Positions 40,097 to 58,572 of a DNA stretch of 64,000 nucleotides are shown here, piece by piece. The DNA lies in contig CP158635.1 of assembly GCA_050273025.1 (NCBI GenBank), positions 10,974,001 to 11,038,000 of the forward strand. Direction: 5' to 3'. This DNA comes from Cenococcum geophilum (taxonomy: Eukaryota). Below the pieces are notes generated by a model. The model was not told the DNA's origin. It searched no databases and worked only from the letters and a program-made list of their open reading frames with translations. Each line of letters opens with the position of its first letter. Positions within the stretch are counted from its first letter, which is position 1. The position numbers and the translations under genes were made by a program.

Positions 40097-40353
40097 TATT
40101 ACAGTGCTGGTGGAAACTGGTAGATTATAGCTAATAGATATTAGTGGATTATGGCGGACAGTCGCAGACAGTTTCACATAGTTTTAGACAATTGCTGTCG
40201 CGTGACTAGAGGATTGTATATAACGTCGAGCGGCGCCGCCCTTTGTCTCCTTTCCTTTCTCTAGCTTTAGATCCTCGTTTATAGACTACCAATCGTATAG
40301 GCTTACGCGTCCCTCTTGCCGTGCTCGTGCCTTAATTGACTAAGTCGCTAACA
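40097..40353 (+). mobile_element. Solo LTR related to the LTRs at 1262 and 7013
   Basis: 3' half matches 1380-1486 (CTAGCTTTAGAT..TAAGTCGCTAACA). TSD GTAAT at 40092-40096 and 40354-40358. Confidence 0.9.
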
Positions 40354-42590
40354 GTAATAGTATTAGCAGCCCCGTATATAGATTTTTGGTAGATATTAAT
40401 TAAGGTAGCTAGGCTACTTATATTTACAGACGTTAAGCTGCTAATACTATATACCTCTTCACTACCCTAGACCGTGATAACATTCGCTCTATACTATCTT
40501 TTAATTTGCTTACTAATACTAATAGCTAGCTCTCTACCTAATTTGCTTTTTTTACCTCTACTTAAATAAAGGTAATAAACTTATCTAGATTACCACTAAG
40601 CTAATCATAATTCTAATTAGGTAGGTTTTTCTTAAGCGCCTTATAGCTAGTTAGATACTAGGCGCAGCTATAAAGGCGGTAATTTACTTATTAGATATAA
40701 CGTAGCTTAAGGTTAGATTCTAAAGAGTATACTAATATTTTTTCTCTATCTAGTTATAGAACTAGTTTTTTATACTTACGGTAAAGGCCTTTTAGTATAT
40801 TTTTCTTAGAATCCCCTCTATATATAGCTTGCGGATATTAAACTCTTTAAAAGCCCGTAAAGTAGGATTATAGTTAGAGTAATAACCTAAGCTACTAGTG
40901 GACGGAGACTATTCCTTATAGTTCTTTAATATAATCTTTTATAAGTAGCCCTTTTTCTTATTTATAAGAGCATATATATAATAGGAGAGAGCTGCTCTTT
41001 TCTTAGCTTTAGTCTTTAAGCGCCATACTAGCTTTTTTAGTAAAATATCCGTAGGTAAAACTACGGATATTCCACCCAGACTAAGCTTTCGCCCTATATT
41101 AGATGCAGACGGATTAGAATTAGTATCGCTATATATAGATACTCTTAAAGATATATTGCTAGCAAAATTAGTAGCCCGTCCTGTTATAGTACCTATCGCT
41201 TAATATAATATTCGCGGCTAAGTTAACTTAGCTAAGATCGGAAGGCTCTATTAGTACAACCGCGATTTTTAGCTGGCCTAGTAATATCCTTAATTAGAAA
41301 TATCGCTATACCTATTTAACTACTACTATAAGCACCACGTCTAAGTTATTACTATAGTATATTAATGGACTTATCTTTATATATATAATACTACGCAATA
41401 TAGTTAATATTAGGAATATTAGCGCTATAGGTAAGCGCGTTAGAGGAGAGCAAAATACGGATTTCTAAGTTAGGCTTTCTAAACTCCTTACATAGTCTAT
41501 CTTTATCCGCAATAGCTAATAATATATAATAAAGTTAAACAGCTCTTCTAGCTTATGCTTTTTAGTACTTATAATATACTAACCATAAACGAATTAAGTC
41601 CTTATATAGTAATATTAAGTCCTTTAAATTAAGAAAGATAATTATCTTTAGGATCTAGTAAGGGGTTAGCATGTATTAGATTCTTTACTTAGCGGATATA
41701 GTAGTATACGCGCGGTTTATAACAAAGTATAAGCTCTTAAAAAACTTCTTATTTTTTTACTTAACGTATTCTCTAATAATTAATAGATCCAGCCGGTTAA
41801 TTAATGTCCGCACTATATTAATATTACTTTAAAAGCCCGCTAACTTTTAAATAATCTTAAACGTTATATTATTAAGTATTGTAGTATAAGTAAACTAAGG
41901 CTTCCACCCTAATAACGACCGCACTTTCTATAACTATATATACGAATTCTGGAATAAACCCCCCTAACTAGCTATAAGGTATACCTTATTAATTACTACT
42001 AAGCTAATATACGCACGAAAGGTAAGGTTAGTAAGAGTTTTATAAAACCTTTTGCTAACTAATAGCTCTAGTAATATTAAAATATAGGTGTATACTCTAA
42101 TGCGGATTTCCTATAAAAGATATACGGATATTATCTTGGTATATATATAAACCAGCCTTATTTTAGGAAGCTCCTTAATCTTTACCTTTTACTTTATACT
42201 AATCGCATTAAGTAGTAAGATAATAATTACTACTATAGCCTAAAGAAGATATGGCATTGCTTATATTATTATATTCTTACTAAATAAGGTTTTTATAATA
42301 AGTATTATATCTTTTTTCTTAAATAGTAACTACCTAAGGGCTTTAAGTTGCTCCGCATATCCGTAATACGGATATAAAAAAGCAATAGCCTTATTAACCT
42401 TGCTTAGCTACTAAGCCTTACTTTTTCCATAAAGCGCAAAAAGCTAATCTTAAAGGTCCTATAGCCGTCACTCCTAGTTTATTCTATAACTCCTTTAAGT
42501 CTAATTATCTAATACCTAATACGGCCGCGGCTGTTCTAGCGCCTTATTTAACTTCTTCCCTCTCTACCTAGTAGGTTTTAGTGCCGGCAT
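40354..42590 (-). pseudogene. RIP-degraded RecQ-like SF2 helicase (AcademH-type); the host sequence continues at 39604-40096 and 24310-25495
   Basis: With RIP reversed: motif I DMILIAKTSFGKS (~42270-42320), ILISPE (~42065-42085), motif II VVIDEVH (~41975-42000), CTATL (~41875), ILLSSDALACGADIPDI (~41405-41460), motif VI WQRLGRGAR (~41330-41360). Candidate ATG at 42590. Confidence 0.8.
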
Positions 42591-43706
42591 ATAGTAGATT
42601 TTTTTAGATATCTATAACTTAGTAGTTAGCGCGCAATAAGGTTTTAATAGGTGTTATACACTATAATACGGACGCTATATGTCCGCTAGGCTATAATGGT
42701 TTTTTTAGAGTAGCTTTTATAGATCTATACGGGTTTTATATATATTAGCTAGTGTTTAATAAAGTTATATATAGTTACAGAATTGCTAATAACGCTTTTT
42801 TTTTAATGAAAATGATTATAAGATCTGAAAATACCTAAGTAATAAAAATGATGTATTCTAAAAGCCTACATTCTATTATATAATTAATTAACTTTAGGAA
42901 ATAATATAAAATACTAGTATTAAGTTATTTTAATATCCGCAACCTTCGCAACGTAAATATTATCTAAAAAAACTAAGAAACATTAGAAATGTGGCTTAGA
43001 CGTAATTTTAGTAGTTTTGCATAAATATAGTTAGTTAGCTTACGGACCAATTGAAAATCTATACCAATAGAATTACGTCTAAGCCTACTAAGGTAAAATG
43101 TCTAATATAATCTAAGGGTTACCTCAGCAAGCTTAAACGTGATTCCGTTAGTGCGGATTTTTAATTAGTCCGCAACCTAATTAACTACGTTTGTGCAAAA
43201 CCACCGGAATTATATCTAAGAGACATTTCTAATATTTTTTACGCTCTTTAACAATATCCGCGTTACGGAGGTTACGGATATTTAAATAACTTAACACTAA
43301 TATTTTATATTACTTTCTAAAGTTTATTAATTATATAATAGAGCATAGGCTTTTAGAATATATTATTTTTATTAAAAAAACGCGTTTTTAGGGATTGTAG
43401 AACTATATATAATTTTATTAAACGCTAACTAATATATATAAAACCTATATAGATCTATAATAGGTACCTTAAGGCACTTACTATAGCGAGGTGGATATAT
43501 AATATCTCTATTATATTAGATAATCTTCCTCTAAACCTAACTATATACTAACTACTAAGTTATAGATATTTAAGCCAATGTATAGTATACTACTATAAAA
43601 ACTTATTATATAGAGAGGTAGAATGTTAAATAAGATACTAGAATACCTACTACCGTATTAGGTGCCGGATACTCAAAATTAAAGAAGGTATAGGATAGAG
43701 CGGGAG
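42470..43706. repeat. ~1.2-kb imperfect palindrome (two related element ends head-to-head), centre ~43108
   Basis: TTACGTCTAAGCCTACTAAGGTAA (~43073-43096) is inverted to TTACCTCAGCAAGCTTAAACGTGA (~43119-43142). TATAGATCTATA..TATATATATTAG (~42718) pairs with ~43428-43459. The diverged match extends into the helicase 5' end. Confidence 0.85.
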
Positions 43707-44071
43707 CGAGCTACGAACCTTAAAAACCACCAAAAATCGGAAAAACTACACCTTTAATATCTTAACAATGGCTTAATAATAAATTCCGAAATTTTATAAT
43801 TAGCCTTTTATACCTACTTTAAACCTCTTATTAGATTTAAAAGGTAATCTATTAAATAGCTCTAAAGATATTATAATTTAGCTTAAAATTAGGGGCTAAA
43901 ACCCAATATTTTAATAACGGTCAGGCTTATTACGCTAGAATTTTATTTAGAGTCTTAACGCAGGCATAAAAGGCTAATCATAAAATCTCGGAATTTATTA
44001 TTAAGCCATTGTCGAGATATTAAGGTACAGTTTTTCCGATTTTTGGTGGTTTTTGAGGTTCGCAGCTCGCT
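43705..44071. mobile_element. Foldback/MITE-like element with ~115-120 bp inverted repeats
   Basis: AGCGAGCTACGAACCTTAAAAACCACCAAAAATCGGAAAAACT... is inverted to ...AGTTTTTCCGATTTTTGGTGGTTTTTGAGGTTCGCAGCTCGCT. No TSD seen. Confidence 0.75.
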
Positions 44072-44795
44072 GGTGGAACACATTAATAACGTCTGAGCTT
44101 GCTGAAGTAACGCCCCACATCTGCCGATAAGTACGTCTATAGCTAATAGCTGATTCCTAACCCAACGTTTAATCTATCACTCCCATCAGCTTACACCGCC
44201 GCGTGGCATACATCCAGGATTAGGTCACGCCTGTCTTTCATAAAATCAGAATTTGGCACTTATTTGCCAGTTGCCGATCCCAGTTTCCGCGCGCCTCAAT
44301 AACCGCTGCCTTTTGACAGAAACATTGCAAAACCGTAGGGTTAAAGGAGTACAACCGAGGCTATTCGAGTAGCTTCACAGGACTCATTACAATAAAAGCA
44401 CAGCACAAGCATGATCAAGCAACAACTCGAGGCCAAGTACATTAACCTTGCGCTCCTGCGCCAACTTTTAATAAGAGAGTTTACAGTAGGAGGATTCCGT
44501 ATTGATGTATGAATGCTCCTCTCACTGCCAAAACCTTCTTTCTCCATGCTTTAGCTAACCTTGTTTCTAACACCACCAGACCGTCGACGATGATTATGTG
44601 CTAGAAATTCCGCGACGGCTGACACAGGTACTATGGCCTACATAACTGCACTTAGGCTTCATTACTTACAAGACCAAGGATGAAGAAAAGTCAGTTCAGA
44701 AGAGTGGATAGTCTTTGAGTTGGGAAATTCGATTGGCAACTTTTGGCCGCCCACCTTCAATTGGCTTTTACCAGCAATTGCATATTTAGCCTAAC

Positions 44796-47750
44796 CTACA
44801 GCGGTAAACAGGATTTCTGTAGCTTTTCAAGAACCTGAACTTGAAACTCCAAGAGTCTGTCTTCACGTCGCTGCTCTGTCTCATCTGTACCGGCATTTCT
44901 GGTGTAGAAGCGCAAACACGTGATGACGGCGTCGCAGTAGCCGGTCCCCATTCGTTGCGGGATATAGTTCTCAGCTGTACGAATTAAAAGTTTCTCTCTA
45001 TCGTGCAGCTGAAGCCTTGAATCTACCATTTTGTCCACCGTCCTCCATAGCGCAATTTCCAAAAGAGTGACGCCCAACGAGTAATAATCAAACAGAGGAT
45101 GGAATCTCGCTCCTGGAATCTGATACGCAGGGTGCACGAAAATCCTATGTCCGGATTGGGAGAGCGGCCCAGTAGAATATGCTTCTGAGTGATCTTGCCG
45201 GCTGTACTGAAATCCAACCAAGAAGGGATCGGATATCCTAATTTTGTTATAATGTTGACCAGGTTCCTTAAAGAAGACGATGTTAAAGGAAGAAACAGAT
45301 TTGTGGAGCCAGCCAGCTAAATGAATGCTATGAATGCAACAAGTAATTGCTAGAGATAAAGCGAACTTCTGATTAAGCGTCGGGTTGACTTCTGGCTCTT
45401 TTGTATTCCGTATGACATCGAAGAGTGTAATCGGCTCCAAGTCTTCGCAATGCTGCTCTACACCAGGGTAGTCATATAAAAGTCCAAACCGCCGTTTTTC
45501 TGGCTCATGATATACACCTAGGCAATCCAATACTCTCATGTCTTTTGGCTTAGGTTTCATTTGGAGCAGCATAGCCAGCTCTTGGACGCGATTAAAAATC
45601 TCCTTTCCTCTAGCTGCGAACTCCTCATCATTTGTGTTATTCATCCAAACATTGTCGTAAGACCTCTGCTCTACCAAGATCTTCTTTTTGTCGTCCTGCC
45701 GATATCCTTGGTGATACCAACGAATAGATAATGGGTTGGGCTTTATGGGGACTGTTTCCGTGAGGCTGATCAAAGCCGGGTCTATGATATTTACTCCAAG
45801 AGTACCAGGTTGAGAGAGCTGAGCTGATAGTAGAATAGACATGTATCTCGCTGCGGCAAGCATGCTAGCTTCCTGGTGCTGAGAGGAACCTTGAAGCGGG
45901 GTAGTGTTACGGTCAAAATTTGAAAGTATTTGAGATTCTTTAGCTTCAACCGTCAGGAGATGAAAGGCGTTGTCGATGCACTTCTTTGTCGACTCTGATA
46001 GGCATTTGAGAAGAGAATTGTTGGTCGTGGTCAGACATGATAAAACCACTTGGCGACTCTCAACTTCGCCACTAGAACTTTGCAGTGTGACTAACTCACT
46101 CTTGCAAGCTGATAGAAGAGCGAGGATCTCCTTATACATTTTGCTTCCTTGCATGTCATATGGCTTTGTCTGACCCTGAACCGAGTGTACTCCAAGGGTA
46201 TATCCCCATGCACGTAGTCGATTGCTTTCGAGCGCTGTCCTTGCTAGATAGACCGTCGAGAGGTTTGCATGGTCCTGGGGCGCCATCAAGTGCTCGAGCA
46301 GATCTATTATTGTGTGTAACCATTGACGAATAGTAATCTGGTCCAATATTCTGACCACTTCTGCCGATTTTGGTCTTTTGTTTGGATCTGCGATGAGAAG
46401 GTCGGATGAGATGGGGAATAATCCAGCGGAGTAATCAATAGAGTGACGCTCTTCCATGGTCTGAAGCCATGAAACGACCCTCGGACTCAGAGATCCTTCG
46501 TGGTGGAAGCAATTATGCCTTCCGTACAATCCGTCAAGCTGACGTTGTTCCCTAAAGGCCTTTACGCCAGATATCCCTTCAAGGACAAATGTCGCAATCT
46601 CGCTCATAACGCAGCCAAGAGACCATATGTCAAAAGCTCGACTGATGTATAACTCCTCAAGGGTCACGAGGTCATGCGACTCCGGAGCCCCGTAAGTGGG
46701 GAAAGTGTTCTTCCATTTCGTTTTCGTATCTTCACCCGCATCCCTGAGACGCGAGAGACCAAAATCAGCAAGAACCAGAAGTTTTCCACGCACGAGAATA
46801 TTTCGCGGCTTAATGTCATGGTGGTAGCCGTGTCTGATAATTTCATCCGCTTCCTTCCCATTTACGGCTAATGGGCGGAAATTATGTAAATAATGAAGAC
46901 CGTTTGCGAGCCCTCTAACAGAGTCATTTACAGTTTTGGTGTCTCGAAACCATTCTGGAGGGGATATATTAAGAAGCAAATCGTGCAGGTCAGATTCAGC
47001 TGGTTGGAAAAGAAGGTTGCAAAAACCACGCTGCGTGTATGATGCGAGCAAGCAGACGATGTTCTCATTCCTTAGGCTTCTCAAAAGGAACAGAAGATCA
47101 TATTCTCTTTTCTGGGCTTCAGCAGATATGCTTTGTGAGATCTCTTTCCTTATAAGGTCAACGCCCTAGAAGAGTTTCGTTAACACGTCTACAAGGTAAA
47201 ACGAAAGACGACTTACTTGAGCTTTACGCGAGTGATCCCAATTTTGATACAAAGAATGCATAGTAACTTTATACACGGTTGAGAAGCCACCGGATGAGAA
47301 TTGTTTGTCATGAATGAAAGGAAGAATGCGCTGAGGCTCTAGGGCACTATGAAAGTGTTCTCGAAACTTGAATGGAATATACTCCCATTGCAGTTTCTGA
47401 AAGTGAGACGCCGACTCTGGAATCATTTCTGAGAGTTTGGCTTCTGAAAGAGGCAAGGCAGAATCCATCACGCATCTCTCCAAGAACATAGTGAGCTTAG
47501 CTTCCAGCCTCAATTCTATTAGAATTGCGAATATCTTTCGACCATTCTCAAAAATTTCTGCGGCGACAAATTTGTGCTGATGATTTGGAATTGAGAACGA
47601 CGGGCTGGCGAGACTATTTTCAATCTTCTCCTGCGTCAAGAGCTCATGAAGGCTGCCTTCTGATACGAACTGGAGAGTTTGAGTACTTCCATCCTTGTCT
47701 GGAATTTCTCGAAGACGTTGAAGTCCTAGTCGAAGGTTATCAGTGTCCAT
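44796..47750 (-). CDS. Gene A: ~967-aa tandem kinase (Ser/Thr kinase + HeLo-like helical segment + C-terminal pseudokinase); exons 47750-47217 and 47165-44796
   Basis: A 51-nt intron GTAAGT...CTAG (47216-47166) joins the 194-aa and 762-aa ORFs in frame. Kinase 1 has SSGGFSTV, IRKE, HHDIKPRN, DFG, GAPE and DIWSLG. The middle has ARTALESNRLRAWGYTLGV (HeLo-like). Kinase 2 has WLHKSVSSFNI, LVGFQYSR and DYYSLGVTLLEIALW, with no catalytic Asp or DFG. Confidence 0.88.
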
Positions 47751-48119
47751 GTTCGATCTCTATGATTCGTCCTACCCAAAGGCAGCAGACAATCATCTGG
47801 CACAAAGTAGTGTGGTATCTGCAGGCTTCAGTCGCTTATATTTCGGCTCGAATTTTATGCTAGTTGCCTTGTTAGGCAACGATTAGGCATCGATAAGGGC
47901 ACCCGAAGAACGACACCCTATGCAGTAGCGAGCGCACCCCGACCAGTGAAATCTATACACGTAATAGCTTTGCTGTACATGGTAGGGGACATTGGTCCAT
48001 TTTAATGTTGTGGCAACCGTCGATAATACCATCCCAAAGAAGATTTGTTAGAGAATAATTAGAATTACAAACTTATCAAGAGACCTTTATTCAAGGGCAT
48101 CTCAGTGAGCCAACCAGAC

Positions 48120-49860
48120 ATGGAGCACTTGACAGTGTCGTTATTTGAACATTCGCTCTCAACAGGCTCTAGCCCAGACGATCAAAGAGAACTTTTAGAG
48201 CAAAGTCTGTCTCGTCTATTTGCGACGCAGGGCGCAGTAGAGTTTTGGGAATATAGAAGAGAGCAGCATACCCTGCTAGAGCAGACTTTCTCTTCAGCCG
48301 AAGCGTTCAGACTTACTCACATGGTAGGGAATTGGCGTATTCGTACTTAATAGAACGAAGTACCAGGATTACTAACATGGGAGCAAGCAAGACGCGCGAC
48401 CCTCAAAGTCTTGGGACCTGCATCTTTTAAGTACCCTCTATCATATTTTCATTTCACATCACTAATTATATTAATTAGTTTTGTAAACCAGGGTCATTCA
48501 TGGAGCAAACTACAAGTGTCCTCTGAATTGCTCCTACAGATTCTAGCCCACCATCGAATATCATCTTTTCTTATTGACTTCGTTCATTGCTTTGGAGATA
48601 AGGTGACTGGAGATGATAACCCATACTATGGAACATTTCATGCGGCTTTCTCCTTGCCAAATGACGGAAAATCACTGCAATTAAACCAGAATTACGGTAA
48701 TCTGAGCATTAACCCGTCTCATTGACATTCGGTTTATAAATTTCTAGAGTTCTGCTGTCACCTACGTCGCTTCGAAAGACACGATAATAGACAGCTAAAA
48801 GATCCCTGGTCTTTGCGACAAATGACCGCTTATCAGCGGTATGATTTCGACAGCGAGAAGTCGACATGGGTGTTGATTAAAGCTTTCCAAGGCTGTAAAT
48901 CTAGACTACGAACCGTCATCTCTAAAGGTCGCCCCAAACATCCCATGGCCTTGCATCTGTTATTCCTGACGATGGCAACCGAAAACTGGAGGTGGTATAT
49001 CGACTGCCTGCGTCGAAGGCTTGCCGAATTTGTAAGTACCACTCTTGATTGTAGATACACACTTAATCAGGCAGTTGAATAGACCGAAAAGGCGACATTC
49101 TCGTGCGTGGAACAGACCAGAGCGGACTACGACATTAAATTCGCAGACAGCCAGCGCCTTCATACCCTTGAGTCCAAGCTAATCATAGCTATTGCTGTTC
49201 TTGAAGAAAATATCGATATCGGAGAAGGCATGAAAAGGCACTGTAACCGTCTAGAACGAACAGAGAAAACGAAAATCTACAAGAAAATAAAAGAGGTCAT
49301 AATTTGTGACTTAGAGGTGCAAATAGCACATCTGCATCTACATAGACGGGCTGCGGAGCTGCTGATATGCCAGCTGCGTGGGACATGCACTTTGGTTCGA
49401 CACCGCTCTAAACGTTGCTACTCCAGTCTCTAATGCCAGCATAGCTGTTGAAAGTCCTCGATTATAGGAACGATTTGATAATGAAGGATTATAGTAAAAT
49501 TGCAAATGAACTCGCTGGGATCGCCAACGCGCAAAACACGAGCCTGAAAGTTCTCGCCCGTGAAACAAAGCGGGACTCACGGTTGGTGAAAGTTTTAACG
49601 GTCATCGCTATTGCGTACCTTCCGGCCAACCTCATTGCGGTAAACCAGAAATTTCCCGCCTCTAAGTTTTTCTCCAAATGGTCTTATCTAATTGGATCTA
49701 GGCGATTTTCTCATCTGGTCTTGTCAGGACATCCGATCAGGACTTTCACGGATCTTCGTTTCATATAAGCAGAGATTTTTGGATCTATCTTCTAACTTCC
49801 ATAGCAGTTACTATCGTAACAGTATCCACGGCTTTCTGGTGGGACCGACGCGGATACTAG
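48120..49860 (+). CDS. Gene B: fungal CorA-like membrane protein with two C-terminal TM helices, about 7 exons
   Basis: Spliced ORFs give HSWSKLQVS..FLIDFVHCFG, LRRFER..DPWSLRQMTAYQRYD, HPMALHLLFL..ENWRWYI, FADSQRL, DSRLVKVLTVIAIAYLPANLIA|AIFSSGLV, FWIYLLTSIAVTIVTV..WW and a TAG at 49858-49860. GT-AG introns at about 48324, 48431, 48697, 49032, 49395 and 49640. The junctions of the first two exons are uncertain. Confidence 0.82.
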
Positions 49861-50730
49861 GAAATCATGTAACGGCGAATTCGCATGGACACAATACCTG
49901 TTGGATTCAGGGCTCCCAACGATAACCTTACTCATTCATTTATCGCGATATGCTTATCGTTATGAAGTGATATGGATACAATATTGAATCTTATGAATGG
50001 ATGAATATTCATAAGCTTATGGATATATATATGATTTGGAGCGTTGGCGCTAGGCAGTGGTGTTGTAAAGGGGTAGTACGGTGTTCGCAAAGGATTATGA
50101 ATACGCCTATCGTTCTAAAATATACGCACAAATAAAAAATTTATTAGCAAACACACAAATGCCAGCCTTCCTAACCACCCCCGCAAATCTACCACTTACA
50201 ACTAAGTCCTATAGCTTCCCCTACTTCAGAATCTCTTTTCATTGACTTCGACAGCAGTTCCGATAATTCATCTAAAAGACATAAGCCTTATTGATTCGAG
50301 AGGCAGAAAGGGGGTGACGATTTGGGAGGACTCCGAGGACGATCGCTCCCTTAACACCTCGCCAAGCCCGGTGATATTGCTTATTAAGTCAATATCGCGA
50401 TATTATCGCGATATTGAATATCTAGAGGCCTTAATGATATGAATACGATAAGTGGTACGAATATACATTTATTCATTACTGGGAGCCATGGTTGGATTGA
50501 GCTAGAGAAGTTATAATATGCTAGACTCGTAGTATTACGTGGCCACTCATATAGTTGCGTCGCTTATAGAGCTGAACAGCCTAGAAGACACCAATTTTAA
50601 GAGTTCAACAATACCACTATCAGCTGTCAAAGCGTAGGAAAATTCTCCTATTACGTATAGACAAAATGTGATATTACTCGAATAAATGTTTGGTTCGAAT
50701 TAGCTTTCGCCGTTACTATTAACAGATTAT

Positions 50731-53700
50731 CTATTCTTGCTTGGAATATAGAGAGTGATTATGCTCAGCAGCTTGCGTTTCCTCATCGTCCGGCCCCAGG
50801 GTTGAGCGGCAGATTTCCAGAACCAAACCGCTTATTGAAATTGCCTCTTCGCGATCTCCTTGTCGAAATAGAATCCCTGCTGCTTGAGTTCCTACGCGGA
50901 TAAAGGTGGGATTTGATTGTCCGTACCCCAATTCACACTTTTCTAGTGCCTGGGCGATACACTGTCGTGCCTCTACATGTTTTCCCTCTCGCTCCATTAC
51001 CCACGCCAGGATAGCAGACAACTCCAAAGTCTTTTCGCCACCCTCTCCAAATGCCTTCGTGGAGATAGTGATGCATTCACGATACGTTGATTCTGCTTCA
51101 ACTAAATTTCCGCGCTGATTCAAAACAGACGCAAGGTTCCACAACCGTTCCAGAATATCCGGATCATCAGGGCCCAAACATTTCCTACTGTATTCGAGAG
51201 CTTCTCTCTGTACCTCTTCAGCTTCATCAAGTTTGTCTTGACAAACTAGTGCTTTGTGTAAATCGTCGATATTCTCGAGAACTTCAACACAGCAGTTGCC
51301 AAACCGAGCCCTTTTGGCTTCAATAATACGCCGATGAAGATGCTCGGACTCGTCGTGGCGGCCTTTGTCCTGAACATATGTCGCAAGGTTCTGCATACAT
51401 GACCAGGTTTCCTCGGTGTCCATGCCTAGCAAGCCTATTGATAAATCCAATGCTCGTCCATAAATTTTTTCAGCTTCATCACTACCTAGGAGTTCGAGGA
51501 CGTTTCCTAGACCAGATAGTGTCGCCAAAAGTGTCACCTGATTGCCACCAACTCGATGTTCTTGGCGATAAAGCAGGGATCGATAGCATGTCTCTGCTTC
51601 ATGTAACTTGCTATGTTCGAGTAAAAAGTCGCTATAGCTATGCAACGAGACTAAAGTTTCTGGGTGCTCCAAACCAAACATTTGTTCTCCTCCATGAATG
51701 CATATCTCGAACATGTTCTTTGCCTGTTCAAAATCTCCTTTCTTTTCATAAAGCCTTGCCTTTCCGAGGAAAATTTGTAGCGCCACTGGATGGTTTGGTC
51801 CTAGAGTTTCCTGTATCATATTTAAGGCTTCATCGTAGCAGCCAAGGCTTTCGTCATACATTTCCAATCCTAGATAGAGAGTGCCACAATTAGCGAGAGC
51901 CGCGGATCGTAAAGGATGACTATCACCGATGACCAGGCGAAACTCTGGCATTGCTCGATCCAGGAGTTCTTTTGCAAGCTTCACATCTTCCTTATGCAAA
52001 TAGAGAAGCGCCAAATTATTGAGGCTAATCAATGTACTGTAGTGGTGCGGGCCGAACATCTTCTCGCTTAGGCGGAGCTCTTCTTCGCAATATTCCTGGG
52101 CTTGGTCATAATTGGCTTGATAGATGTAAAAGGCGCCAAGATCACTCATAACGTTCAGAGTGGCTTCATGGAGCTTTCCGAAGATAGATTCTCTTTGAGA
52201 AAGGACAGACTTGTAAAGCCTCTCCGCTTCTTCAAAGGACCCTAAATCCTGGAGCAGTTGTGCTTGCATGTGAACGCTAGATAATGTCAAAGGGTGATTC
52301 TCTCCAAAGAGTCGAACTCTTTCGCTAAACAACCATTCGCAATATCGATATGCCGCCTTGTACTTTCCCTACAGGCGATACAATCCCGATAACTCGCTCC
52401 ACAGAACGTGTGTATCGAGATGCTGAGGACCAAATTCGGGATGATTTTCCAACCATTGTACCTGCTCCTCTTGTAGGTCTGCTGCTTTGGCATAGTCGCC
52501 GGCTCTTTTCAAAACTGATGCGAAAGTCGATTTCATGCCCACTGATACCAGGGATTGGCTACCTAAACAACATTCAAGGTCAGATATTTCCCGCTCATAT
52601 CCTTGTATGATCTGATCAAGTGAATAATCTGCTTTGTACGCATCAAAATAATCCACAGGGCGTAGATATCCCTCGTTATTTAAGTTGGTGAGAAAGCGGC
52701 TATGGTATAGGAACGGATCAGAAGTTGGCGATATCTGTGATATAAGTTGTACCTCGCTCTGAAGCTCGGCAGCGGCCCTTCCAGAATTCTGTAACCACTC
52801 TTGGGAAGATCGCTCGCTTGCAGCAATACCAAATCCAATTTTAAAGCAGAGCGCAAGCTGAAAGGCCGAATTCTTCTGGCACCTCAAGCATTTGTTGTAT
52901 CGCGCCTCATGCAATATGCACTTCATAATGTGCTCCCTGACCCTGCGATCAATTTTTACGAACTGCAATATGCTTTCGGAAATCTACAGGCCATTAGCCT
53001 TGAGCTAAGATACAATGAAGGTTTTAAGCACCTGGAAGTCATGGTGTTGCTGGAATTCATTCTCATGATCTTCGATCGTTCCGGGAATGATCTCTTCAGT
53101 CGGAATCCACTCAGTCACATCAAACTCCGGATTGCTTCGTATACCATCTGGAATATTTTTGAGAACTTCTGAGACTACTTGGAAATCCGTCGCTCGGTCG
53201 ACCGGATCAGGGGCAAGTGTCATTTCGAATAGTTTCATTAAACCCTCTTTCTGTCCGGAAGTCGGAGACTCTAACGACCCAACCTGGCTTCGACAGAATG
53301 GGCGCATTTTATCCATCGTTTTTAGACCGTCAATTGTCCTAAAGTTGTGTTTTCCAGCACCTTCTAGAGTGGGATTGTCGGCTAGATCCAGAGCAATTGG
53401 GAATTGATTGGAGAGCTCTTCCCGGAAAAGAACCCATGCACATAACATCCCAAACGAGAATATGTCAGTTTTAATTGCTTCAGAGGGGCTGAGTAGATTT
53501 GATTCGTAGCAAACTTCAGGAGCATTCCAAGGCTTTGAGCATGGGACAGTTATAGCGGAGTCATCTTCATACTCCGTGGAATACCCAAAATCTGAAAGTT
53601 GTGCGGTGAGAGCCTGGCCATTCAAATCCGTTATTAAGATGTTCTGCGGTTTTATATCACCATGTATGATATCTGGACGTGTAAGTAATCTTCACCCGAA

Positions 53701-54314
53701 TGTAAATTGAGACACTCACGACAAGCATGTAATGTTTTCAACGCCTCAGCTACGTTTCGGCACATGCTAATCCGGTCGGATAGAGTAAATTCCCTACCTT
53801 GCCCAGAGGTGAAGAACTGCTGCATATCTCCATGGTGCATGTTCTCATATACCAAGACTGGATCAACAGTAAGATTTTGTTTATCGACGTTCCAGCAAAT
53901 CCCGACCGGATGGTGAATAAAAAGGCAATTCCAGACTGATTTCTTAAAAAAGGGTCTCAGTTCCGACATCAATGCCGCATAGATACGCTCTTCGTCTATG
54001 GCACTTCGAGCATGAGAGTTTTCTATCATGTCGATAGCTTTGAATGCTAGTCTGAATTCAAGACTAAGCAGAGACTGATGGATCTTCGCTGTTCCTCCGC
54101 ATCCTATTAGCCCAAGCCGAGGCTGCCAGGATATTGGGAGAAAGTCGATTAACAGCTTTTGCGCAGTGGCGCAGAAGTAGAGGAAGTTCAGGTGGCAGGT
54201 ATTGTCTCCGCTCCGTTGACCAGATTGCCGAGGTAATGTTGGGAAGAGGACATCGGAGCCTAGAAATGGCCGACTAAACTGTTTGCTGAAGAGATAAAGT
54301 TCGCTTTGAGCCAT
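50731..54314 (-). pseudogene. Gene C: Ser/Thr kinase + Sel1-like repeat + long TPR array (~1162 codons); exons 54314-53720, 53672-53032, 52983-50731; one in-frame TAG at 52371-52369
   Basis: Introns GTGAGT..CAG (53719-53673) and GTGCTT..TAG (53031-52984) keep the frame. Kinase motifs IGCGGTA, LAFK, IIHGDIKPQN, DFG, WNAPE, DIFSFG. Sel1-like AFQLALCFKIGFG..WL. ~42-aa TPRs of the GxxHPxTL type. The frame is open apart from YRL*GKY. Confidence 0.82.
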
Positions 54315-54643: not shown

Positions 54644-54900
54644 TATTACGGCACTGGCAGCAGATTGCGGCATATTTCGGCAGAAAACGGCAGATAGTAT
54701 TAGGCACGTGATTTCCTAATTGTATATAGCATATTCTTTATTATAATAATATTTAATAAACAAATTAAGCTTTTTAATTAATTAATTAATTAATACCTAG
54801 AACTATAATGTAGTACTAACAGATTGTAATAAATTGTAATAAAATTTAGTAGATATAATAGCACTAGGGCGTGTTATTACTATAATATACTATATATTGC
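54644..54900 (+). mobile_element. LTR relic(s) at the right edge of the gene island
   Basis: TATTACGGCACTGGCAG matches the start of the 1262 LTR (TGTTACGGCACTGGCAG). RIP-type AT richness resumes here. The end coordinate is uncertain. Confidence 0.6.
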
Positions 54901-55169
54901 CGTTCTACTGCTATAATTTAGTTTTAGCTTATCTATTTACTAATACTATTACAGACTTAGTTAATTAAGGCGTAAGGCGTAGGTACTATAAGAGGAAAGA
55001 TAGAAGCCTATATAATTAGTAGTTTATTAATTAGGATTTAAAGTTAAAGAAAAGTAAAGTAAAAGATAAGTAGCGCCACTTAAAGTTTTATATAACTATA
55101 ACTACCTACCAAGTTCTGCTATAATTTACTGTTTTTTATTAATACTATAATACTATCCCACCTATTATA

Positions 55170-55416
55170 TATTACGGTACTAACAGAAAATAGTAGAACT
55201 TAGCAGAACTTAGTAAATAGCTATAGTTATATAACTAGAAAATCGTATAAAACTCTAAGCGGCGCTGCTTGCTTTTTCTCCTTTTCTTTTCTCTAGCTTT
55301 AGATCCTTGTTTATAGACAATCCAATTATATAAGCTTGCGCGTCCCTTTTGCCATACTTATACCTTAATTAACTAAGTCGCTAATATTATCTAAAGCTTA
55401 TCTACTTTTTCTTCTT
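55170..55416 (+). mobile_element. 5' LTR and first internal bases of a gypsy from the 1262 family
   Basis: CTAGCTTTAGATCCTTGTTTATAGACAATCCAAT..TAAGTCGCTAATA-TTATCTAAAGCT matches 1393-1500. Confidence 0.8.
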
Positions 55417-56310
55417 TATTACGGACCTTATATTAGCAGTAGTCGCACTACTAAAAAGGGATATAAATAGGTTGGTTAAAATAGTATGGGAGGTATTAGA
55501 ATTAATTAAGCTATAAAATAAGAGGTAATTAAATTACGTGGCTAGTTATATTATAAAGTTTAAAACGTAGAAACGTGGGAATGTGAGAATATATAATATA
55601 CTGACGTACTAATACACTAACGTACTTAGTATATTTCTTATACGTAGTATTATATATTTAAAGGACTACAGTCTTTACCTAGATAGTTCTTTTTTTAAAG
55701 TTAATCTATTAGGTAACCTACTCTACTAATTATATTTACATTATTAACTTTTTTATTTACCTATATACTTACCTATTAATAAGTCTACTATAGTATTTCC
55801 TATAAGGCTTTATTATATATTTACTACTATAGTTATAGTATTAATAAAAGTTAAACAATATACTACCTAAAGCACTAGTTATAATGCTATTAATGGTAGT
55901 AACTACTTTAGGATTAGGAGATACTAGTATAAGAAATAATAACCTATAAGTAGTTATAATAAATTAACTTAAAAGTGTTATGGAGTAGAATAATATTAAT
56001 AATTAAGTACTACTTTAATAATTGTAAGGTATAAAAAAGGAAAAGATTAAAATGCTATTAATTAAGAGGTTAATAGGAGAAAAGTATAAGCTTAAAGAAT
56101 TCCTTATATAAATGCGGTTAAAGATTTAGTGTAAAGGAAGTAGGCTTATAGATATAAGCAATTAAGTGACGTATATAGGACTATTCTTAACGGGTTAGGC
56201 ACTAAAGTAGTTTAAACCTATCTTTAAGTTATAGAGATATAAGCTAATAGGTTAGCTACTACTAATTTAAAAATATAGTATATATTCTTAAGCTAGGAAG
56301 GATTTACTAA
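55417..56310 (+). mobile_element. 5' LTR and gag start of a gypsy from the 25496-39603 family, in opposite orientation
   Basis: Reverse-complement match to LTR 39183-39603 and to the gag 5' region at ~38700-39180. Confidence 0.8.
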
Positions 56311-57790
56311 TAGATATAATAAAGCCTTATAGTAGGAACTACGCTCTTAATTAGAGGATATATGGCATAAACAATATAAACGAACACCGGTATACCCCAA
56401 GGCTTAGCGCTGTCGCCAATCCTATTCCTCTTTTTTGCCTGCACACTCCTACTAGAGCTGCAAGGGGGAACCACTACGGCATTCGGATTTGTTGACGACT
56501 CCAATATACTGACGTATAGCAAGACTACGGAGGAAAACTGCAGAACTATAGAAAGGGCGCATAAGGTATACACGGCGTAGGCACGCCGGCATGGGGTAGT
56601 GTTTGCCCCCAAAAAGTACCACCTTATCCATTTTATAAGGAGCCACAAGAAGTTTAATATAAAGGCTATAGCTAACATATATAGCTTTACGGAAGGCCCA
56701 GTTAGTAACCTACGTGTATTAGGGGTATAAGTTAACTTAAAGCTTAAATGGGGACCGTATGTTAATATTATTAAGACGAAGGCGATTACCCAAATGGCCG
56801 CACTAACCTAGCTTACGGCCTCTATATAGGGCGCTTCCTTCCAGAAGGCGCGGATAATATACTCCGCCATAGTCCGGCCGGTAATCTTATACGGATATAG
56901 TATCTAGTACTCGCTACCGGAGTGGACGAAGCCTAAGGAAATAAGTAAAACTAAACTGCGCTAGCTAGGCGTAGGATAGAACCTATGCCTCCGCACCATT
57001 GCGGGGGCATATAAATTAACGCCAATAGTAGTACTAGAGCATGAGATGGGGTTTCTACCGCTTTAGATGCACCTTAAAGAGCTAGCTATAGCCTACGCGG
57101 AGAGAATATAGGAAGGACCGGCAAGAGAGTATATTAAGAGGGAGTGCAACACTATACGGGCTATAATAGCTTACCAACTCCGGCCTAGAATAAAGCCACT
57201 AATGCGGCCCACTAGACGGGATAAGCTTAAGAGGATAGCGGCCGCTATCTTAGGGACAGATATACGGCTAATAGACGTATCTAAAGCGCAGTATAAGAGA
57301 AGTAGAAGGGCTAGGGTATAAAAGGCGTTTAAGGAGCGGTGGAAAAGGGAATAGGAAAAGTACTAGAGCACGCTTACCTACTATATAACGGCCTAGGCCG
57401 AGCTATAGAACAAGAAAGTCTTTAAACGCTACGCGAGGCTTATAAAGGTAAAGAGTATAATTAATACGCTACTTAGAACCGAGTATATAGGGCTTAACAA
57501 ATACCTCTACTATTAAAAAGTACTAGGGTACCTAACCCCGGCCTACCTATACGGCCATAGCCAACAATTAACAATGTACGTAGTGGTGTTCTGCCCTAGA
57601 TACGCTGCTAGCCGGGCGGAAATATATTACTATACTAGAATATCCTTATATAAAGAGCTCCTAACTAAGCTAAAGGCTACTAAGGCAGTTATGGACTGGT
57701 TTATACAGACAAACCTCCTACTATACCTTTTATTTGCTAAAGAGCTAGCTAGGGTAAAGAAAGGAGGCTAGGAAGCGCTTTAAGAGGCAG
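56310..57790 (+). mobile_element. 5'-truncated Tad1-like LINE (RT C-terminal part and CCHC finger), RIP-mutated
   Basis: GIPQGSALSPILFLF (~56388-56435), GFVDD (~56485), FAPKKYHLIHF, TLLRTEHIGLNKYL, and CPCG..H..FCP (~57545-57598). Confidence 0.88.
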
Positions 57791-57799
57791 AGGATAAAT

Positions 57800-58170
57800 A
57801 CTACAGGGATAGTAGAATATGGTAGAATTTTACAAATAGCAATCTGGTAGAAGTTAGTAGAACTCTAGTAACCCGGTAGAATTTGGTAGAACTTATTAAC
57901 CTGGTAGAATTTGGTAGAATTTAGCAACCTAATAGAAGTTGGCAGAATTTTAGCAACCTAATAGAATTTAGTAGAGTTTTGGCAACCTAATAGAATTTGG
58001 CAGAGTTTTAGTAACCTAACAGAATTTAGTAGAATCTCGGCAACCTGGCAGAATCTAATAACCTAATAGAAGTTGGCAGAACTTTAGTAACCTAGCAGAA
58101 TTTAACAGAATCTGGTAACCTAGTAGAACTTAGTAGAGGTTAATATCCTAATAAAACTTAATAAAACTTA
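57800..58170. repeat. Degenerate ~30-bp tandem array built on GGCAGAA(T) units; LINE 3' region or part of an LTR ending at ~58558
   Basis: Repeated GGTAGAATTTGGTAGAA...AACC(T/C) units are directly visible. Which element owns them is unresolved. Confidence 0.7.
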
Positions 58171-58572
58171 GCAAGGTATAGAGCTGCGTATATTAACGTA
58201 GATATAAATAACGGAACCTTCTATACCACTATTAGCCTTATAGGCCACCGGCCTATGCCCTACTTAAATAACCGGAGCAGCCAGGAACGGAACCTAGGCC
58301 CTAGCTATATACCCCACCAAATAAACCCAGGAGTACGCATTAAGATAGCTTTTCTATAGCGCCTTAAAGAGACGTCTACTTGTGCTTAGCAGTTACTAAT
58401 CAGAAGAGAGGCTATATAGGCCGCATAATAAGCCATATAGGCCGTATAACAAGAAAAGGAGAGGTTTTATCCGGCCCCAGCGGTACGGTTCCCCTTTTAT
58501 ACATGTATATATATACCTATATAGACCCGCTACATGGACCCTAACGGGAGCCGTAACAGCGTAATTAAATAT

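What the first reader, a model, noticed from the sequence alone, without database searches (positions are those of the whole stretch)
44796..54314. Isolated three-gene module (kinase-TPR, CorA-like channel, kinase-HeLo-pseudokinase): candidate undescribed fungal immunity or cell-death system
Seen: the only intact-looking genes in 64 kb are three tightly packed, non-housekeeping genes in a GC island walled by RIP'd transposons. Established: GxxHPxTL-type TPR arrays act as sensors in fungal NLRs; HeLo domains (HET-S) are membrane-targeting death domains related to the MLKL four-helix bundle; CorA-family proteins serve as defence effectors in some bacterial type III CRISPR systems; fungal incompatibility genes tend to be clustered and accessory. 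Inference: the TPR-kinase senses a non-self ligand and phosphorylates the tandem kinase and/or the CorA-like protein, causing membrane permeabilisation. This would be an NLR-free sensor-relay-effector cassette. I know of no characterised system with this composition.
Basis: partly seen in the sequence, partly recalled or inferred. Interest (0 to 1): 0.9.

Follow-up and report, generated by a model that had tools for sequence, protein, structure and literature searches.

The report
Conserved fungal kinase, HeLo, CorA cluster
In the mycorrhizal fungus Cenococcum geophilum, four neighbouring genes recur together in other fungi and look like an undescribed kinase-driven cell-death or non-self-response module, but no experiment has tested this.

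Summary
The window comes from Cenococcum geophilum 1.58. The un-RIPed island (about 44.0-54.7 kb) is real, but such islands are ordinary in this genome (78% transposons). It holds four transcribed genes, not three.

- **A:** 967 aa, with an active-looking kinase, a HeLo-like helical domain and a DUF7580 pseudokinase. Its in-frame TAG lies inside an intron.
- **B:** 468 aa, with a full CorA fold (Z 18) but no GMN motif.
- **C:** a kinase-TPR gene of 1162 codons. TAG at codon 617 is real and is kept in the RNA. DNA contigs from another sample read CAG there.

The clustering is conserved. Homologues of A and B are neighbours in Pyrenochaeta, Paraphoma and Lophiotrema. A metagenomic fungal contig (L001) carries a paralogous A with C-like, S-like and B-like genes within 12 kb, in a different order. 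An S-like domain is fused to a B-subfamily protein in Anthostomella.

Functional coupling is therefore likely (about 0.7). The proposed mechanism is a sensor kinase acting on a kinase-fused MLKL-like protein together with a CorA-type channel. It is inferred, not shown. My literature searches found no description of this cluster.

The parts
44411..44711 (+). Gene S: small spliced gene of 58 codons. Exons are 44411-44506, 44580-44627 and 44679-44711. It is convergent with gene A, 85 bp from A's stop codon.
   Evidence: GT..AG joints at 44506/44580 and 44625/44677 appear in RNA contigs of runs X6 and X11. The ORF was derived from these joints. An S-like ORF lies convergent to the A-like gene in L001, and an S-like stretch forms the N-terminus of B-subfamily protein P0244. 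No Pfam family matches.
44796..47750 (-). Gene A, 967 aa. Exon 1 is 47217-47750, the intron is 47166-47216 and exon 2 is 44796-47165 including the stop. GenBank's model (OCK98959.1, 880 aa) starts too late.
   Evidence: The spliced translation equals the Logan-derived protein P0205, 967 aa. The intron joint is seen in RNA contigs. P0010 is 100% identical over exon 2.
46356..47303 (-). Gene A N-terminal protein kinase domain (spans the intron). The catalytic-loop, DFG and APE motifs are all present.
   Evidence: Pfam Pkinase scores 72.9 bits against a cutoff of 31.7. Motifs are listed. These residues are at least 90% conserved in the family alignment.
45813..46370 (-). Gene A HeLo-like helical domain (residues 444-629 of the protein).
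   Evidence: The AF2 model shows a helical bundle at residues 1-186 of the modelled half; mean pLDDT for the whole model is 86.8. Pfam HeLo PF14479 gives E 0.01 and 16.1 bits, below the cutoff of 23.2. However, 9 of 13 homologous segments match it, best E 7.5e-7, as do 32 of 56 full homologues. The nearest Atlas clusters are HeLo plus DUF7580 proteins.
44799..45803 (-). Gene A C-terminal pseudokinase (DUF7580). It has a protein-kinase fold without the catalytic Asp or the DFG Asp.
   Evidence: Pfam DUF7580 scores 34-35 bits against a cutoff of 27. VIA gives Z 20.5 to BRAF, 18.6 to RIPK3 and 18.0 to the MLKL pseudokinase over model residues 190-524. All Foldseek top hits are kinases. The degenerate motifs are shown.
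47751..48119 (.). 369-bp intergenic region between the divergent genes A and B (a possible shared promoter).
   Evidence: Start codons are fixed by the gene models. Promoter function is inferred and was not tested.
48120..49860 (+). Gene B, 468 aa, a CorA-fold membrane protein. Its seven exons are 48120-48323, 48392-48427, 48480-48696, 48748-49031, 49083-49394, 49445-49639 and 49702-49860.
   Evidence: The spliced translation equals P0004. All six joints appear in RNA contigs. AF2 gives pLDDT 89.3. VIA gives Z 18.3 to M. jannaschii CorA, 18.0 to T. maritima CorA and CmaX, 16-17 to ZntB and 12-13 to Mrs2. Foldseek gives E 1e-10 to CorA. FSS stands in place of GMN.
50731..54314 (-). Gene C, a kinase-TPR gene of 1162 codons. 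Exon 1 is 53720-54314, exon 2 is 53032-53672 and exon 3 is 50731-52983 including the stop. The TPR array lies at about 50734-52467.
   Evidence: Both introns appear as joints in RNA contigs. Pfam finds Pkinase, nine TPR_12 stretches and TPR_10. The first 616 aa equal P0207, which is found on 30 Logan contigs.
52369..52371 (-). Premature TAG at codon 617 of gene C, inside the first TPR unit. It is one of four C-to-T changes (coding strand) within 66 bp, relative to DNA contigs from another sample.
   Evidence: RNA contigs X6 and X11 cover 50693-52983 with 0 other letters and show no joint there. One X5 DNA contig (depth 7) reads G at 52306, 52327, 52335 and 52371 where the window has A. At 52371 this gives CAG, Gln.
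1..44000 (.). Upstream flank of RIPed transposon relics (LTR retrotransposons).
54700..64000 (.). Downstream flank of RIPed repeats. Positions 59751-63670 repeat 26692-30325.

Best explanation
S, A, B and C form one functionally coupled gene cluster. It is inherited as a unit in Pezizomycotina and most likely acts as a kinase-driven regulated cell-death or non-self-response module.

Proposed order of events (all inferred):
1. Protein C binds a trigger through its TPR array and its kinase domain becomes active.
2. C phosphorylates or otherwise activates protein A.
3. A combines, in one polypeptide, a RIPK-like active kinase with an MLKL-like unit (a HeLo-type helical bundle followed by a pseudokinase). 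Phosphorylation of the pseudokinase frees the helical domain.
4. The output at the membrane is ion flux or permeabilisation. The HeLo-like domain produces it together with protein B, a pentamer-type CorA-fold channel that lacks the Mg-selective GMN motif.
5. The 58-aa protein S is an adaptor or regulator that docks on B.

In strain 1.58 the sensor gene C carries a recent nonsense mutation, so this strain probably has a disabled sensor.

Shown here: the gene models, transcription and splicing, the folds and motifs, the conserved clustering and the strain difference. Every biochemical step is inferred.
For: Gene models and expression:
- All four genes are spliced in RNA contigs of runs X6 and X11.
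- The spliced products of A, B and the truncated C occur as Logan proteins P0205, P0004 and P0207.

Linkage of A and B:
- Metagenome locus L001 carries the following genes:
  - An A-like gene at 8711-11515 on the + strand, 35% identical over the full length.
  - A divergent C-like kinase-TPR gene at 8486 to 5511. Its N-terminal exon is 28% identical over 199 aa and ends at the same exon border as gene C's. Its last exon is 27% identical over 379 aa, starting where exon 3 of gene C starts.
  - An S-like ORF convergent to the A-like gene, at 12022 to 11924.
  - The start of a B-like gene at 525 to 2.
  - A second C-like kinase fragment.

Evidence that the cluster is old:
- The L001 A-like gene falls in a different, paralogous clade from Cenococcum A. 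Both clades contain Pleosporales, so the association predates that split.
- The A-linked B proteins form one clade of 8 among 45 rows, support 100. That clade also contains the Anthostomella S-B fusion P0244.
- Cenococcum S is 37% identical over 46 aa to the N-terminus of P0244.

Folds and family context:
- B has a CorA fold at Z 18. The A pseudokinase has a kinase fold at Z 20.5, with RIPK3 and MLKL among the tied kinase hits.
- HeLo is the one recurrent Pfam family in the middle domain of A: 9 of 13 segments and 32 of 56 homologues.
- The nearest Atlas clusters to the C-terminal half of A are stand-alone HeLo (98% of members) plus DUF7580 proteins (a lead only).
[quoted passage not shown] It also notes NOD-less protease-repeat sensors next to fungal gasdermins (PMC12881547, passages and section 18).

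Strain difference:
- A loss-of-function allele of the sensor occurs in this strain but not in the other sample examined.
Against: - No functional datum exists for any of the four proteins or their families.
- HeLo is below Pfam's cutoff in the window's own protein.
- A profile of the middle domain found no HET-s or MLKL chain in the PDB at E up to 10.
- The helical domain was never folded and searched on its own.
- The HeLo-like domain is internal, with a kinase in front of it. In HET-S and MLKL a free N-terminal helix is held to be needed for membrane attack (PMC12881547 section 18).
- C-like and S-like genes are documented in only 2 of the 5 loci. The neighbours in the three named genomes could not be read.
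- Adjacency in those three genomes is inferred from consecutive accession numbers, not from coordinates.
- Four members of the A-linked B clade have no A-like protein among the named hits: Geoglossum, Podospora conica, Xylariomycetidae sp. and Anthostomella. The pairing may therefore not be universal, although that search is word-seeded and capped.
- The B family is large (1569 representative clusters at E up to 0.001) and could have an ordinary transport role.
- Strain 1.58 lives with a kinase-only C product and expresses A and B, so the truncated C is evidently not lethal.
- The TPR array has no DNA-level internal repeats of the kind seen in hypervariable fungal NLR sensors.
Confidence: 0.45

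Rival explanations
1. The cluster is a kinase-regulated ion-transport or stress-signalling unit with no role in cell death or immunity. B would be a divalent-cation channel whose gating is set by the two kinases, with S as a regulatory subunit. The helical domain of A would be a regulatory brace rather than a membrane-attacking domain.
For: - B has the complete CorA/ZntB/Mrs2 fold with two C-terminal membrane helices.
- 34 of 65 relatives match Pfam CorA.
- The family is large and widespread in Pezizomycotina.
- HeLo is sub-threshold in this protein, and the domain is internal.
- All three large genes are steadily represented in RNA contigs of the two RNA runs laid.
- Strain 1.58 tolerates the truncated C.
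Against: - The GMN selectivity motif is replaced throughout the family.
- The C-terminal half of A groups with HeLo plus DUF7580 proteins.
- A TPR_10/TPR_12 array on a kinase, a patchy distribution and a loss-of-function allele in one strain all fit accessory non-self or defence genes better than ion homeostasis.
Confidence: 0.25
2. The cluster is specifically a heterokaryon-incompatibility (allorecognition) locus. Allelic differences in C's TPR array or in A/B would trigger death after fusion of unlike Cenococcum strains, and strain 1.58 would carry a null allele.
For: - The parts resemble fungal cell-death machinery.
- The sensor gene differs between this strain and one other sample by a nonsense codon and two amino-acid changes.
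- Raw RNA reads of another sample with the label of organism B gave 0 reads on the genes among 9.3 million records read. This is compatible with absence or with silence.
Against: - Only one other sample was compared.
- Across the roughly 8.9 kb of listed X5 contig pieces there are only 5 differences, which is very low diversity rather than the deep allelic divergence typical of het loci.
- There is no repeat hypervariability.
- The cluster is conserved across genera and paralogues. That points to a general function rather than a species-specific allelic system.
Confidence: 0.12
3. The genes are unrelated neighbours. Their co-occurrence reflects retained microsynteny in Dothideomycetes plus chance.
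For: - Three of the five loci are from related Dothideomycetes, and their adjacency rests on accession order only.
- Kinases, TPR proteins and CorA-like proteins are all common in these genomes.
Against: - L001 holds all four gene types around a paralogous A, in a different order and orientation and with a RIPed insertion between them.
- A and B are divergently arranged 369 bp apart.
- The A-linked B proteins form one clade that also contains an S-B fusion.
- C-like homology extends over the non-TPR N-terminus and linker, with shared exon borders.
Confidence: 0.1

Closest known systems
Mammalian necroptosis pair RIPK3 (kinase) and MLKL (four-helix bundle plus pseudokinase)
   Same: An active kinase, a helical membrane-type domain and a pseudokinase occur together. 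In A the order helical domain then pseudokinase matches MLKL. The pseudokinase model matches RIPK3 (Z 18.6) and the MLKL pseudokinase (Z 18.0) as well as it matches other kinases.
   Different: In A the kinase is fused in front of the MLKL-like unit, so the helical domain is internal. No RHIM or amyloid motif was looked for or seen. The kinase hits are tied with many unrelated kinases, so no specific kinship to RIPK3 or MLKL is shown. A CorA-fold protein, a TPR sensor kinase and a small protein are additional partners.
Fungal HeLo/HELL proteins (HET-S, HELLP) controlled by NLRs through amyloid templating, and HeLo-plus-kinase-like proteins noted in reviews
   Same: Pfam HeLo is the recurrent family of A's middle domain in relatives. 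Stand-alone HeLo plus DUF7580 proteins are the nearest Atlas clusters. The review PMC12881547 mentions HELL domains in kinase or pseudokinase proteins.
   Different: The cluster has no NLR and no prion-forming C-terminus was noted. HeLo is internal and below threshold in this protein. The presumed activation is by phosphorylation rather than by amyloid templating.
Fungal gasdermin clusters with NOD-less protease-repeat sensors (het-Q1/het-Q2 type)
   Same: The logic is the same: an executioner gene sits next to a gene that fuses an activating enzyme to TPR/WD40/ANK-type repeats without a nucleotide-binding domain (review passage).
   Different: The enzyme here is a kinase rather than a protease. 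The executioner is MLKL-like rather than gasdermin. Two further genes (B and S) belong to the cluster.
CorA / ZntB / Mrs2 / Alr1 metal-ion channels, and CorA effectors of bacterial type III CRISPR systems (the latter recalled, not from any call)
   Same: B has the full-length fold: a cytosolic alpha/beta domain, a long stalk helix and two membrane helices.
   Different: B has FSS where GMN stands. Sequence identity to solved CorA proteins is 8-12%. The window's protein does not reach the Pfam CorA cutoff (E 0.074). The cluster has no nucleotide-signal synthase, so any gating would have to come from kinases or S.
Plant tandem kinase-pseudokinase resistance proteins and plant MLKL-like proteins (Pm13: title and abstract in the listing; tandem kinases are recalled)
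   Same: A kinase plus pseudokinase occur in one immune-type protein. An MLKL-like architecture is used in immunity outside animals.
   Different: This is a different kingdom, no homology beyond the kinase fold was tested, and there is a HeLo-like domain between the two kinase folds.

Membership tests
CorA / MIT superfamily (gene B) | Overall fold: N-terminal alpha/beta cytosolic domain, long stalk helix and two C-terminal membrane helices | tested here: met
   AF2 pLDDT is 89.3, with helices at 308-420 and 442-467. VIA gives Z 18.3 (4ev6, 305 residues aligned), 18.0 (7nh9) and 18.0 (5jrw). The cytosolic domain alone gives Z 17.6 at rmsd 4.0 (8zah). Foldseek gives E 1e-10.
CorA / MIT superfamily (gene B) | GMN motif at the end of the first membrane helix (the motif's role is recalled) | tested here: not met
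   The window protein has FSS at that place after YLPANLIAAI. The family consensus is YLPAxLxAxxFSSxL.
CorA / MIT superfamily (gene B) | Pfam PF01544 above its gathering score | tested here: not met
   The best result is E 0.074 and 12.8 bits against a cutoff of 27, on the exon that encodes the first membrane helix. However, 34 of 65 relatives match at E up to 0.01, best 4e-8. Precomputed PF26616 'CorA-like transporter domain' is listed for all 6 hits, but that model is not in the Pfam copy used here.
Active eukaryotic protein kinase (A N-terminal domain; C N-terminal domain) | Pfam Pkinase above cutoff, with catalytic-loop Asp/Lys/Asn, DFG and APE motifs | tested here: met
   A scores 72.9 bits and the C exon-2 piece scores 52.4 bits, against a cutoff of 31.7. 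HHDIKPRN, DFG and APE are present in A. HGDIKPQN, DFG and APE are present in C. Catalytic activity itself was not tested.
Pseudokinase DUF7580 (A C-terminal domain) | Pfam PF24476 above cutoff, a kinase fold, and loss of catalytic residues | tested here: met
   Pfam scores 34.1-35.4 bits against a cutoff of 27. VIA Z is 20.5 over model residues 193-523. The catalytic-loop equivalent is GWLHKSVSSFN and the DFG equivalent is VGFQYSR, and both lack the Asp. These motifs are conserved in the family.
HeLo domain (PF14479) / MLKL four-helix-bundle superfamily (A middle domain) | Pfam HeLo above its gathering score in this protein | tested here: not met
   E 0.01 and 16.1 bits against a cutoff of 23.2, over profile positions 15-129 of 205.
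HeLo domain (PF14479) / MLKL four-helix-bundle superfamily (A middle domain) | Homology at the level of the family | tested here: inconclusive
   9 of 13 middle segments (best E 7.5e-7) and 32 of 56 full homologues (best E 6.9e-6) hit HeLo, and no other family recurs. Atlas neighbours are HeLo plus DUF7580 proteins. A profile search of PDB sequences found no HeLo or MLKL chain. The helical domain was not folded and searched on its own. Both fold searches of the two-domain model were filled by kinases.
HeLo domain (PF14479) / MLKL four-helix-bundle superfamily (A middle domain) | Domain at the free N-terminus, so that the first helix can be released | tested here: not met
   The domain begins at about residue 444 of 967, behind a kinase domain.
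Fungal NLR (STAND) receptors (gene C) | Central NACHT or NB-ARC NTPase domain | tested here: not met
   No NACHT or NB-ARC Pfam hit on any piece of C at E up to 0.01. There is no hit at all on the 204-aa linker even at E up to 10. No G....GK[ST] motif occurs in the 1162 codons.
Fungal NLR-type TPR sensor arrays (gene C) | TPR_10/TPR_12 repeats, and near-identical internal repeats at the DNA level | tested here: inconclusive
   TPR_12 gives E 3.8e-70 over 9 stretches and TPR_10 gives E 8.8e-53. Tandem Repeats Finder finds no array in 50700-52500.
Heterokaryon-incompatibility locus | Deeply divergent alleles under balancing selection, with death on co-expression | not testable with these tools
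   Only one other sample could be compared. It shows 5 differences over about 8.9 kb of listed pieces, one of which removes the stop.

The most novel reading that the evidence does not exclude
Filamentous ascomycetes possess a necroptosis-like pathway that needs no NLR and no amyloid. A TPR sensor kinase would activate, by phosphorylation, a protein that unites the RIPK-like kinase and the MLKL-like executioner in one chain. That protein would work with a dedicated GMN-less CorA-fold channel and a small adaptor. The four genes would travel as one cassette that has duplicated and diversified as a unit.
Probability: 0.3. Interest if true: 0.85.

Novelty: new variant of a known kind. Interest (0 to 1): 0.68.

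Why it matters
Fungal regulated cell death is known mainly from NLR and amyloid control of HeLo proteins and from protease control of gasdermins. A phosphorylation-controlled MLKL-like system has been suspected from domain architectures, but no gene-level system is defined for it in the papers I searched.

This locus gives a concrete, compact, expressed set of candidate partners: sensor kinase, kinase-fused MLKL-like protein, CorA-fold channel and small adaptor. Natural controls come with it. One is a strain with a nonsense allele of the sensor. Another is paralogous clusters in other fungi. A third is a natural S-B fusion.

The locus would make two questions directly testable. The first is whether necroptosis-type kinase signalling exists in fungi. 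The second is whether a CorA-fold channel can serve as a death or immune effector in eukaryotes.

It also assigns a first genomic context to two uncharacterised families, DUF7580 and the fungal CorA-like transporter domain.

Tried and rejected
- **Complex prediction never ran.** The other tries were not sent on. I first asked for B with the C-terminal half of A. From I asked for the CorA-like part of P0244 with its S-like N-terminus. No co-fold result exists.
- **Whole genome and contig access.** No genome is held for the window, and the L001 record is not held for the genome search. The rest of the B-like gene in L001 and the rest of that contig could therefore not be read.
- **Metagenome scan with alignment A1.** 606 stretches matched a pattern, but only 1 encoded a relative (L001).
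- **Earlier findings of this scan.** Nothing was found by place, by sequence or by words.
- **HeLo via solved structures.** phmmer with the window's middle domain gave 0 hits. A 13-sequence profile gave only two chance-level hits (Gid8, E 5.5 and 7.6).
- **Fold searches of the two-domain A model.** Both lists were filled by kinases, so they say nothing about the helical domain.
- **Idea that S is a free copy of the first helix-strand-strand element of B proteins.** An HMM of 55 B-family N-termini scored S, the P0244 N-terminus and the L001 S exon no better than 400 shuffled controls. Rejected.
- **Weak S-like matches.** I dismissed a match in P0155 (E 0.017 in a 368-protein set) and a 16-aa match inside the L001 C-like gene (E 0.055).
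- **Domain fusions in longer B-family members.** 28 proteins were scanned and only CorA was found.
- **Equal contig length (13151) of A-like P0051 and TPR protein P0123**. Such a coincidence is expected about 0.4 times by chance (my own rough estimate), and I did not use it.
- **Tandem repeats in the TPR DNA.** None were found.
- **Literature.** Searches found no paper that describes this cluster. 'DUF7580' and 'CorA-like transporter domain' each occur in 0 papers of the library. Subscription journals and bioRxiv supplements were not searchable.

Full report
**Origin and context**

Exon 2 of gene A is 100% identical to 'kinase-like protein [Cenococcum geophilum 1.58]' (P0010). Gene C corresponds to K441DRAFT_693173 of the same strain. 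The accessions of A and C are OCK98959.1 and OCK98961.1, and XTI82780.1 and XTI82782.1 in a newer assembly.

The island is real. The five 2-kb bins from 44001 to 54000 have TpA/ApT of 0.63-0.89 and (CpA+TpG)/(ApC+GpT) of 1.19-1.46. All 27 other bins have 1.5-2.08 and 0.23-0.63. Seven of the eight ORFs of at least 150 aa lie in the island.

The flanks carry two LTR pairs, a reverse-transcriptase fragment and a 3.6-kb repeat present on both sides.

This setting is not special here. The 2026 genome paper reports 78% transposons and 73% RIP-affected sequence for this strain (PMC12910237, abstract and passages).

**Gene models**

I built the models by hand. I then checked them against proteins from public assemblies and against RNA contigs.

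- **Gene A (minus strand).**
  - It has one 51-nt intron (47166-47216), whose 3' end supplies the in-frame TAG.
  - The spliced product of 967 aa equals P0205.
  - The joint is present in RNA contigs of X6 and X11.
  - The GenBank model (880 aa) starts too late.
- **Gene B (plus strand).**
  - It has six introns, and the stops in its frame are intronic.
  - The product equals P0004, 468 aa.
  - All six joints are seen in RNA contigs.
- **Gene C (minus strand).**
  - It has two introns (53673-53719 and 52984-53031) and 1162 codons.
  - TAG at codon 617 (52369-52371) lies inside the first TPR unit.
  - Two RNA contigs cross this place with no other letters and no joint.
  - The 616-aa product ending there (P0207) stands on 30 Logan contigs.
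  - Both deposited models (P0083 and P0206) avoid the stop with different introns. Neither intron appears in the two RNA runs laid.
- **Gene S (plus strand, 44411-44711).** The same RNA contigs show two further GT..AG joints left of gene A. These define a 58-codon gene convergent with A.

**The nonsense codon is strain-specific**

DNA contigs of run X5, which comes from another sample, cover the whole island. In the listed pieces (about 8.9 kb) they differ from the window at five places.

- Four of these lie within 66 bp: 52306, 52327, 52335 and 52371. All four are G in X5 and A in the window. On the coding strand this is C to T, twice before A and twice before G.
- The change at 52371 turns CAG (Gln) into TAG.
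- One of the other three is R629W, and two are silent.
- The fifth difference, at 50930, is W1097L (G to T on the coding strand).

The frame stays open for 545 codons after the stop. I read this as a recent clustered cytosine-deamination event, RIP-like, in the 1.58 lineage. The direction of change and the cause are inferred. The X5 evidence is one contig at depth 7.

**What the proteins are**

*Protein A.* It has four parts.
- **N-terminal stretch.** About 150 aa with no family match.
- **Kinase domain.** It scores 72.9 bits, and all catalytic motifs are present.
- **Helical domain.**
  - The C-terminal half of A folds with mean pLDDT 86.8 into a helical bundle (model residues 1-186) and a kinase fold (200-524).
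  - Pfam HeLo is below its cutoff in the window's own protein (16.1 bits against 23.2).
  - HeLo is nevertheless the only recurrent family in relatives: 9 of 13 segments and 32 of 56 full proteins.
  - The nearest Atlas clusters are stand-alone HeLo plus DUF7580 proteins of Ascomycota (a lead only).
  - A profile search of PDB sequences found no HeLo or MLKL chain.
HeLo membership is therefore probable at family level but not settled.
- **DUF7580 domain.** The kinase fold scores Z 20.5 to BRAF. RIPK3 (18.6) and the MLKL pseudokinase (18.0) are tied with many other kinases. Its catalytic-loop and DFG equivalents lack the aspartates. It is therefore a pseudokinase.

*Protein B.*
- It folds with pLDDT 89.3 into a complete CorA architecture.
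- VIA gives Z 18.3, 18.0 and 18.0 to archaeal and bacterial CorA and CmaX, 16-17 to ZntB and 12-13 to Mrs2.
- FSS replaces the GMN motif in this protein and in the family consensus.
- The family has 1569 representative clusters at E up to 0.001. The named members I looked up come from many classes of Pezizomycotina.

*Protein C.*
- It is an active-looking kinase followed by a 200-aa linker and nine TPR_12 stretches.
- It has no NTPase domain or Walker A motif.

*Protein S.* It matches no Pfam family.

**Is it a module?**

- **Adjacency in named genomes.** B-like and A-like proteins have consecutive accession numbers and equal contig lengths in Paraphoma chrysanthemicola, Pyrenochaeta sp. DS3sAY3a and Lophiotrema nucula. 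I infer adjacency from this, because I could not read the coordinates.
- **Locus L001.**
  - It is the single metagenome locus that the scan returned.
  - It holds an A-like gene with the same architecture.
  - A C-like kinase-TPR gene lies head to head with it. Homology covers the non-TPR N-terminus and the linker, and the segments end at the same exon borders. It does not match A.
  - An S-like ORF lies convergent to the A-like gene, as in Cenococcum.
  - Beyond 3 kb of RIPed sequence, the start of a B-like gene lies head to head with a second, degenerate C-like kinase fragment.
- **The A-family tree.** The L001 A-like gene sits in a different clade from Cenococcum A, and both clades contain Pleosporales (quick IQ-TREE). 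The two clusters are therefore paralogous, and the association is older than their split.
- **The B-family tree.** The A-linked B proteins form one clade of 8 among 45 rows (support 100, FastTree). This clade also contains P0244 of Anthostomella pinea, whose first 48 residues are S-like. They are 37% identical to Cenococcum S and 64% identical to the L001 exon. A natural S-B fusion of this kind argues that S works on B.
- **Atlas structure lead.** An S-like fold also occurs in 75-aa Ascomycota proteins and in a cluster of 852-aa kinases (a lead only).

Limits of this evidence:
- C-like and S-like neighbours are documented in only 2 of the 5 loci. The other three could not be read.
- Four species in the A-linked B clade have no A-like protein among the named hits.
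- Three of the five loci are Dothideomycetes.

**Mechanism**

By analogy with RIPK3 and MLKL, and with fungal gasdermin clusters whose neighbour encodes a NOD-less protease-repeat sensor (PMC12881547), I propose the following. C senses through its TPR array and signals by phosphorylation. A is a self-contained kinase plus MLKL-like executioner. B provides or amplifies ion flux at the membrane, and S docks on B. Each of these steps is inferred.

Points against this reading:
- The HeLo-like domain is internal.
- The HeLo score in this protein is sub-threshold.
- Strain 1.58 tolerates a kinase-only C product.
- B's large family might simply be a family of transporters.

The main rival is a kinase-regulated ion-transport unit with no death function. 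An allorecognition role is a narrower variant. Chance neighbourhood is unlikely given L001 and the trees.

**Novelty**

Eight full-text searches found no description of this gene combination. 'DUF7580' and 'CorA-like transporter domain' occur in no paper of the library.

I also read passages of a 2025 review, a 2022 survey of NLR effector domains and a 2025 Sordariales NLR study. None describes the combination. The review mentions HELL domains in kinase or pseudokinase proteins only in passing.

The parts belong to known kinds, but the cassette as a conserved unit appears to be new.

Noticed in passing
window 48427-48480: Intron 2 of gene B (52 nt) has no GT..AG ends in any of the three registers that reproduce protein P0004. 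Read laying prints its ends as TT..AG. The skip stands in RNA contigs of both X6 and X11. It may be a non-canonical splice site.
   Followed up: partly
window 49900-50600: The spacer between the 3' ends of genes B and C behaves as a dispersed repeat. Depth there is up to about 100 (X5) and 135 (X6), against 6 and 55-80 on the genes. Many variant letters and loose ends appear in all four runs. It is the only place where raw RNA reads of X21 landed, at 90-95% likeness.
   Followed up: no
window 50731-54314 and 44796-47750: The deposited annotations are wrong at this locus. Both gene C models (P0083 of 1130 aa, P0206 of 1146 aa) skip the TAG with two different introns, and neither intron appears in the two RNA runs laid. 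The gene A model (P0010, 880 aa) lacks the first 87 residues found in transcript-derived P0205.
   Followed up: yes
window 44400-44800: One RNA contig in each of X6 and X11 runs through both gene S (+) and gene A (-). The two convergent transcripts therefore overlap at their 3' ends, or are merged by the assembler.
   Followed up: no
L001 900-1750 (+) and 6880-7290 (-): L001 holds a second, frame-broken C-like kinase fragment that ends at a RIPed block. The linker region of its intact C-like gene contains a short tandem repeat (three copies of a roughly 20-codon unit are visible in translation).
   Followed up: partly
L001 2001-5000 and 12001-21000: The related locus also lies between extremely AT-rich, RIP-like blocks (GC 0.16-0.31; (CpA+TpG)/(ApC+GpT) of 0.0-0.2 in all but one of the twelve 1-kb bins). 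One such block separates the B-like gene from the rest of the cluster.
   Followed up: partly
window 1259-7237 and 30683-37013: Two LTR-retrotransposon relics have LTRs that are still 95-96% identical, even though the whole region carries the RIP signature.
   Followed up: no
run X21 (coded), whole island: About 9.3 million raw RNA records of a 2026 run with the label of organism B gave no read on any of the four genes. The genes may be silent under those conditions or absent from that isolate.
   Followed up: no
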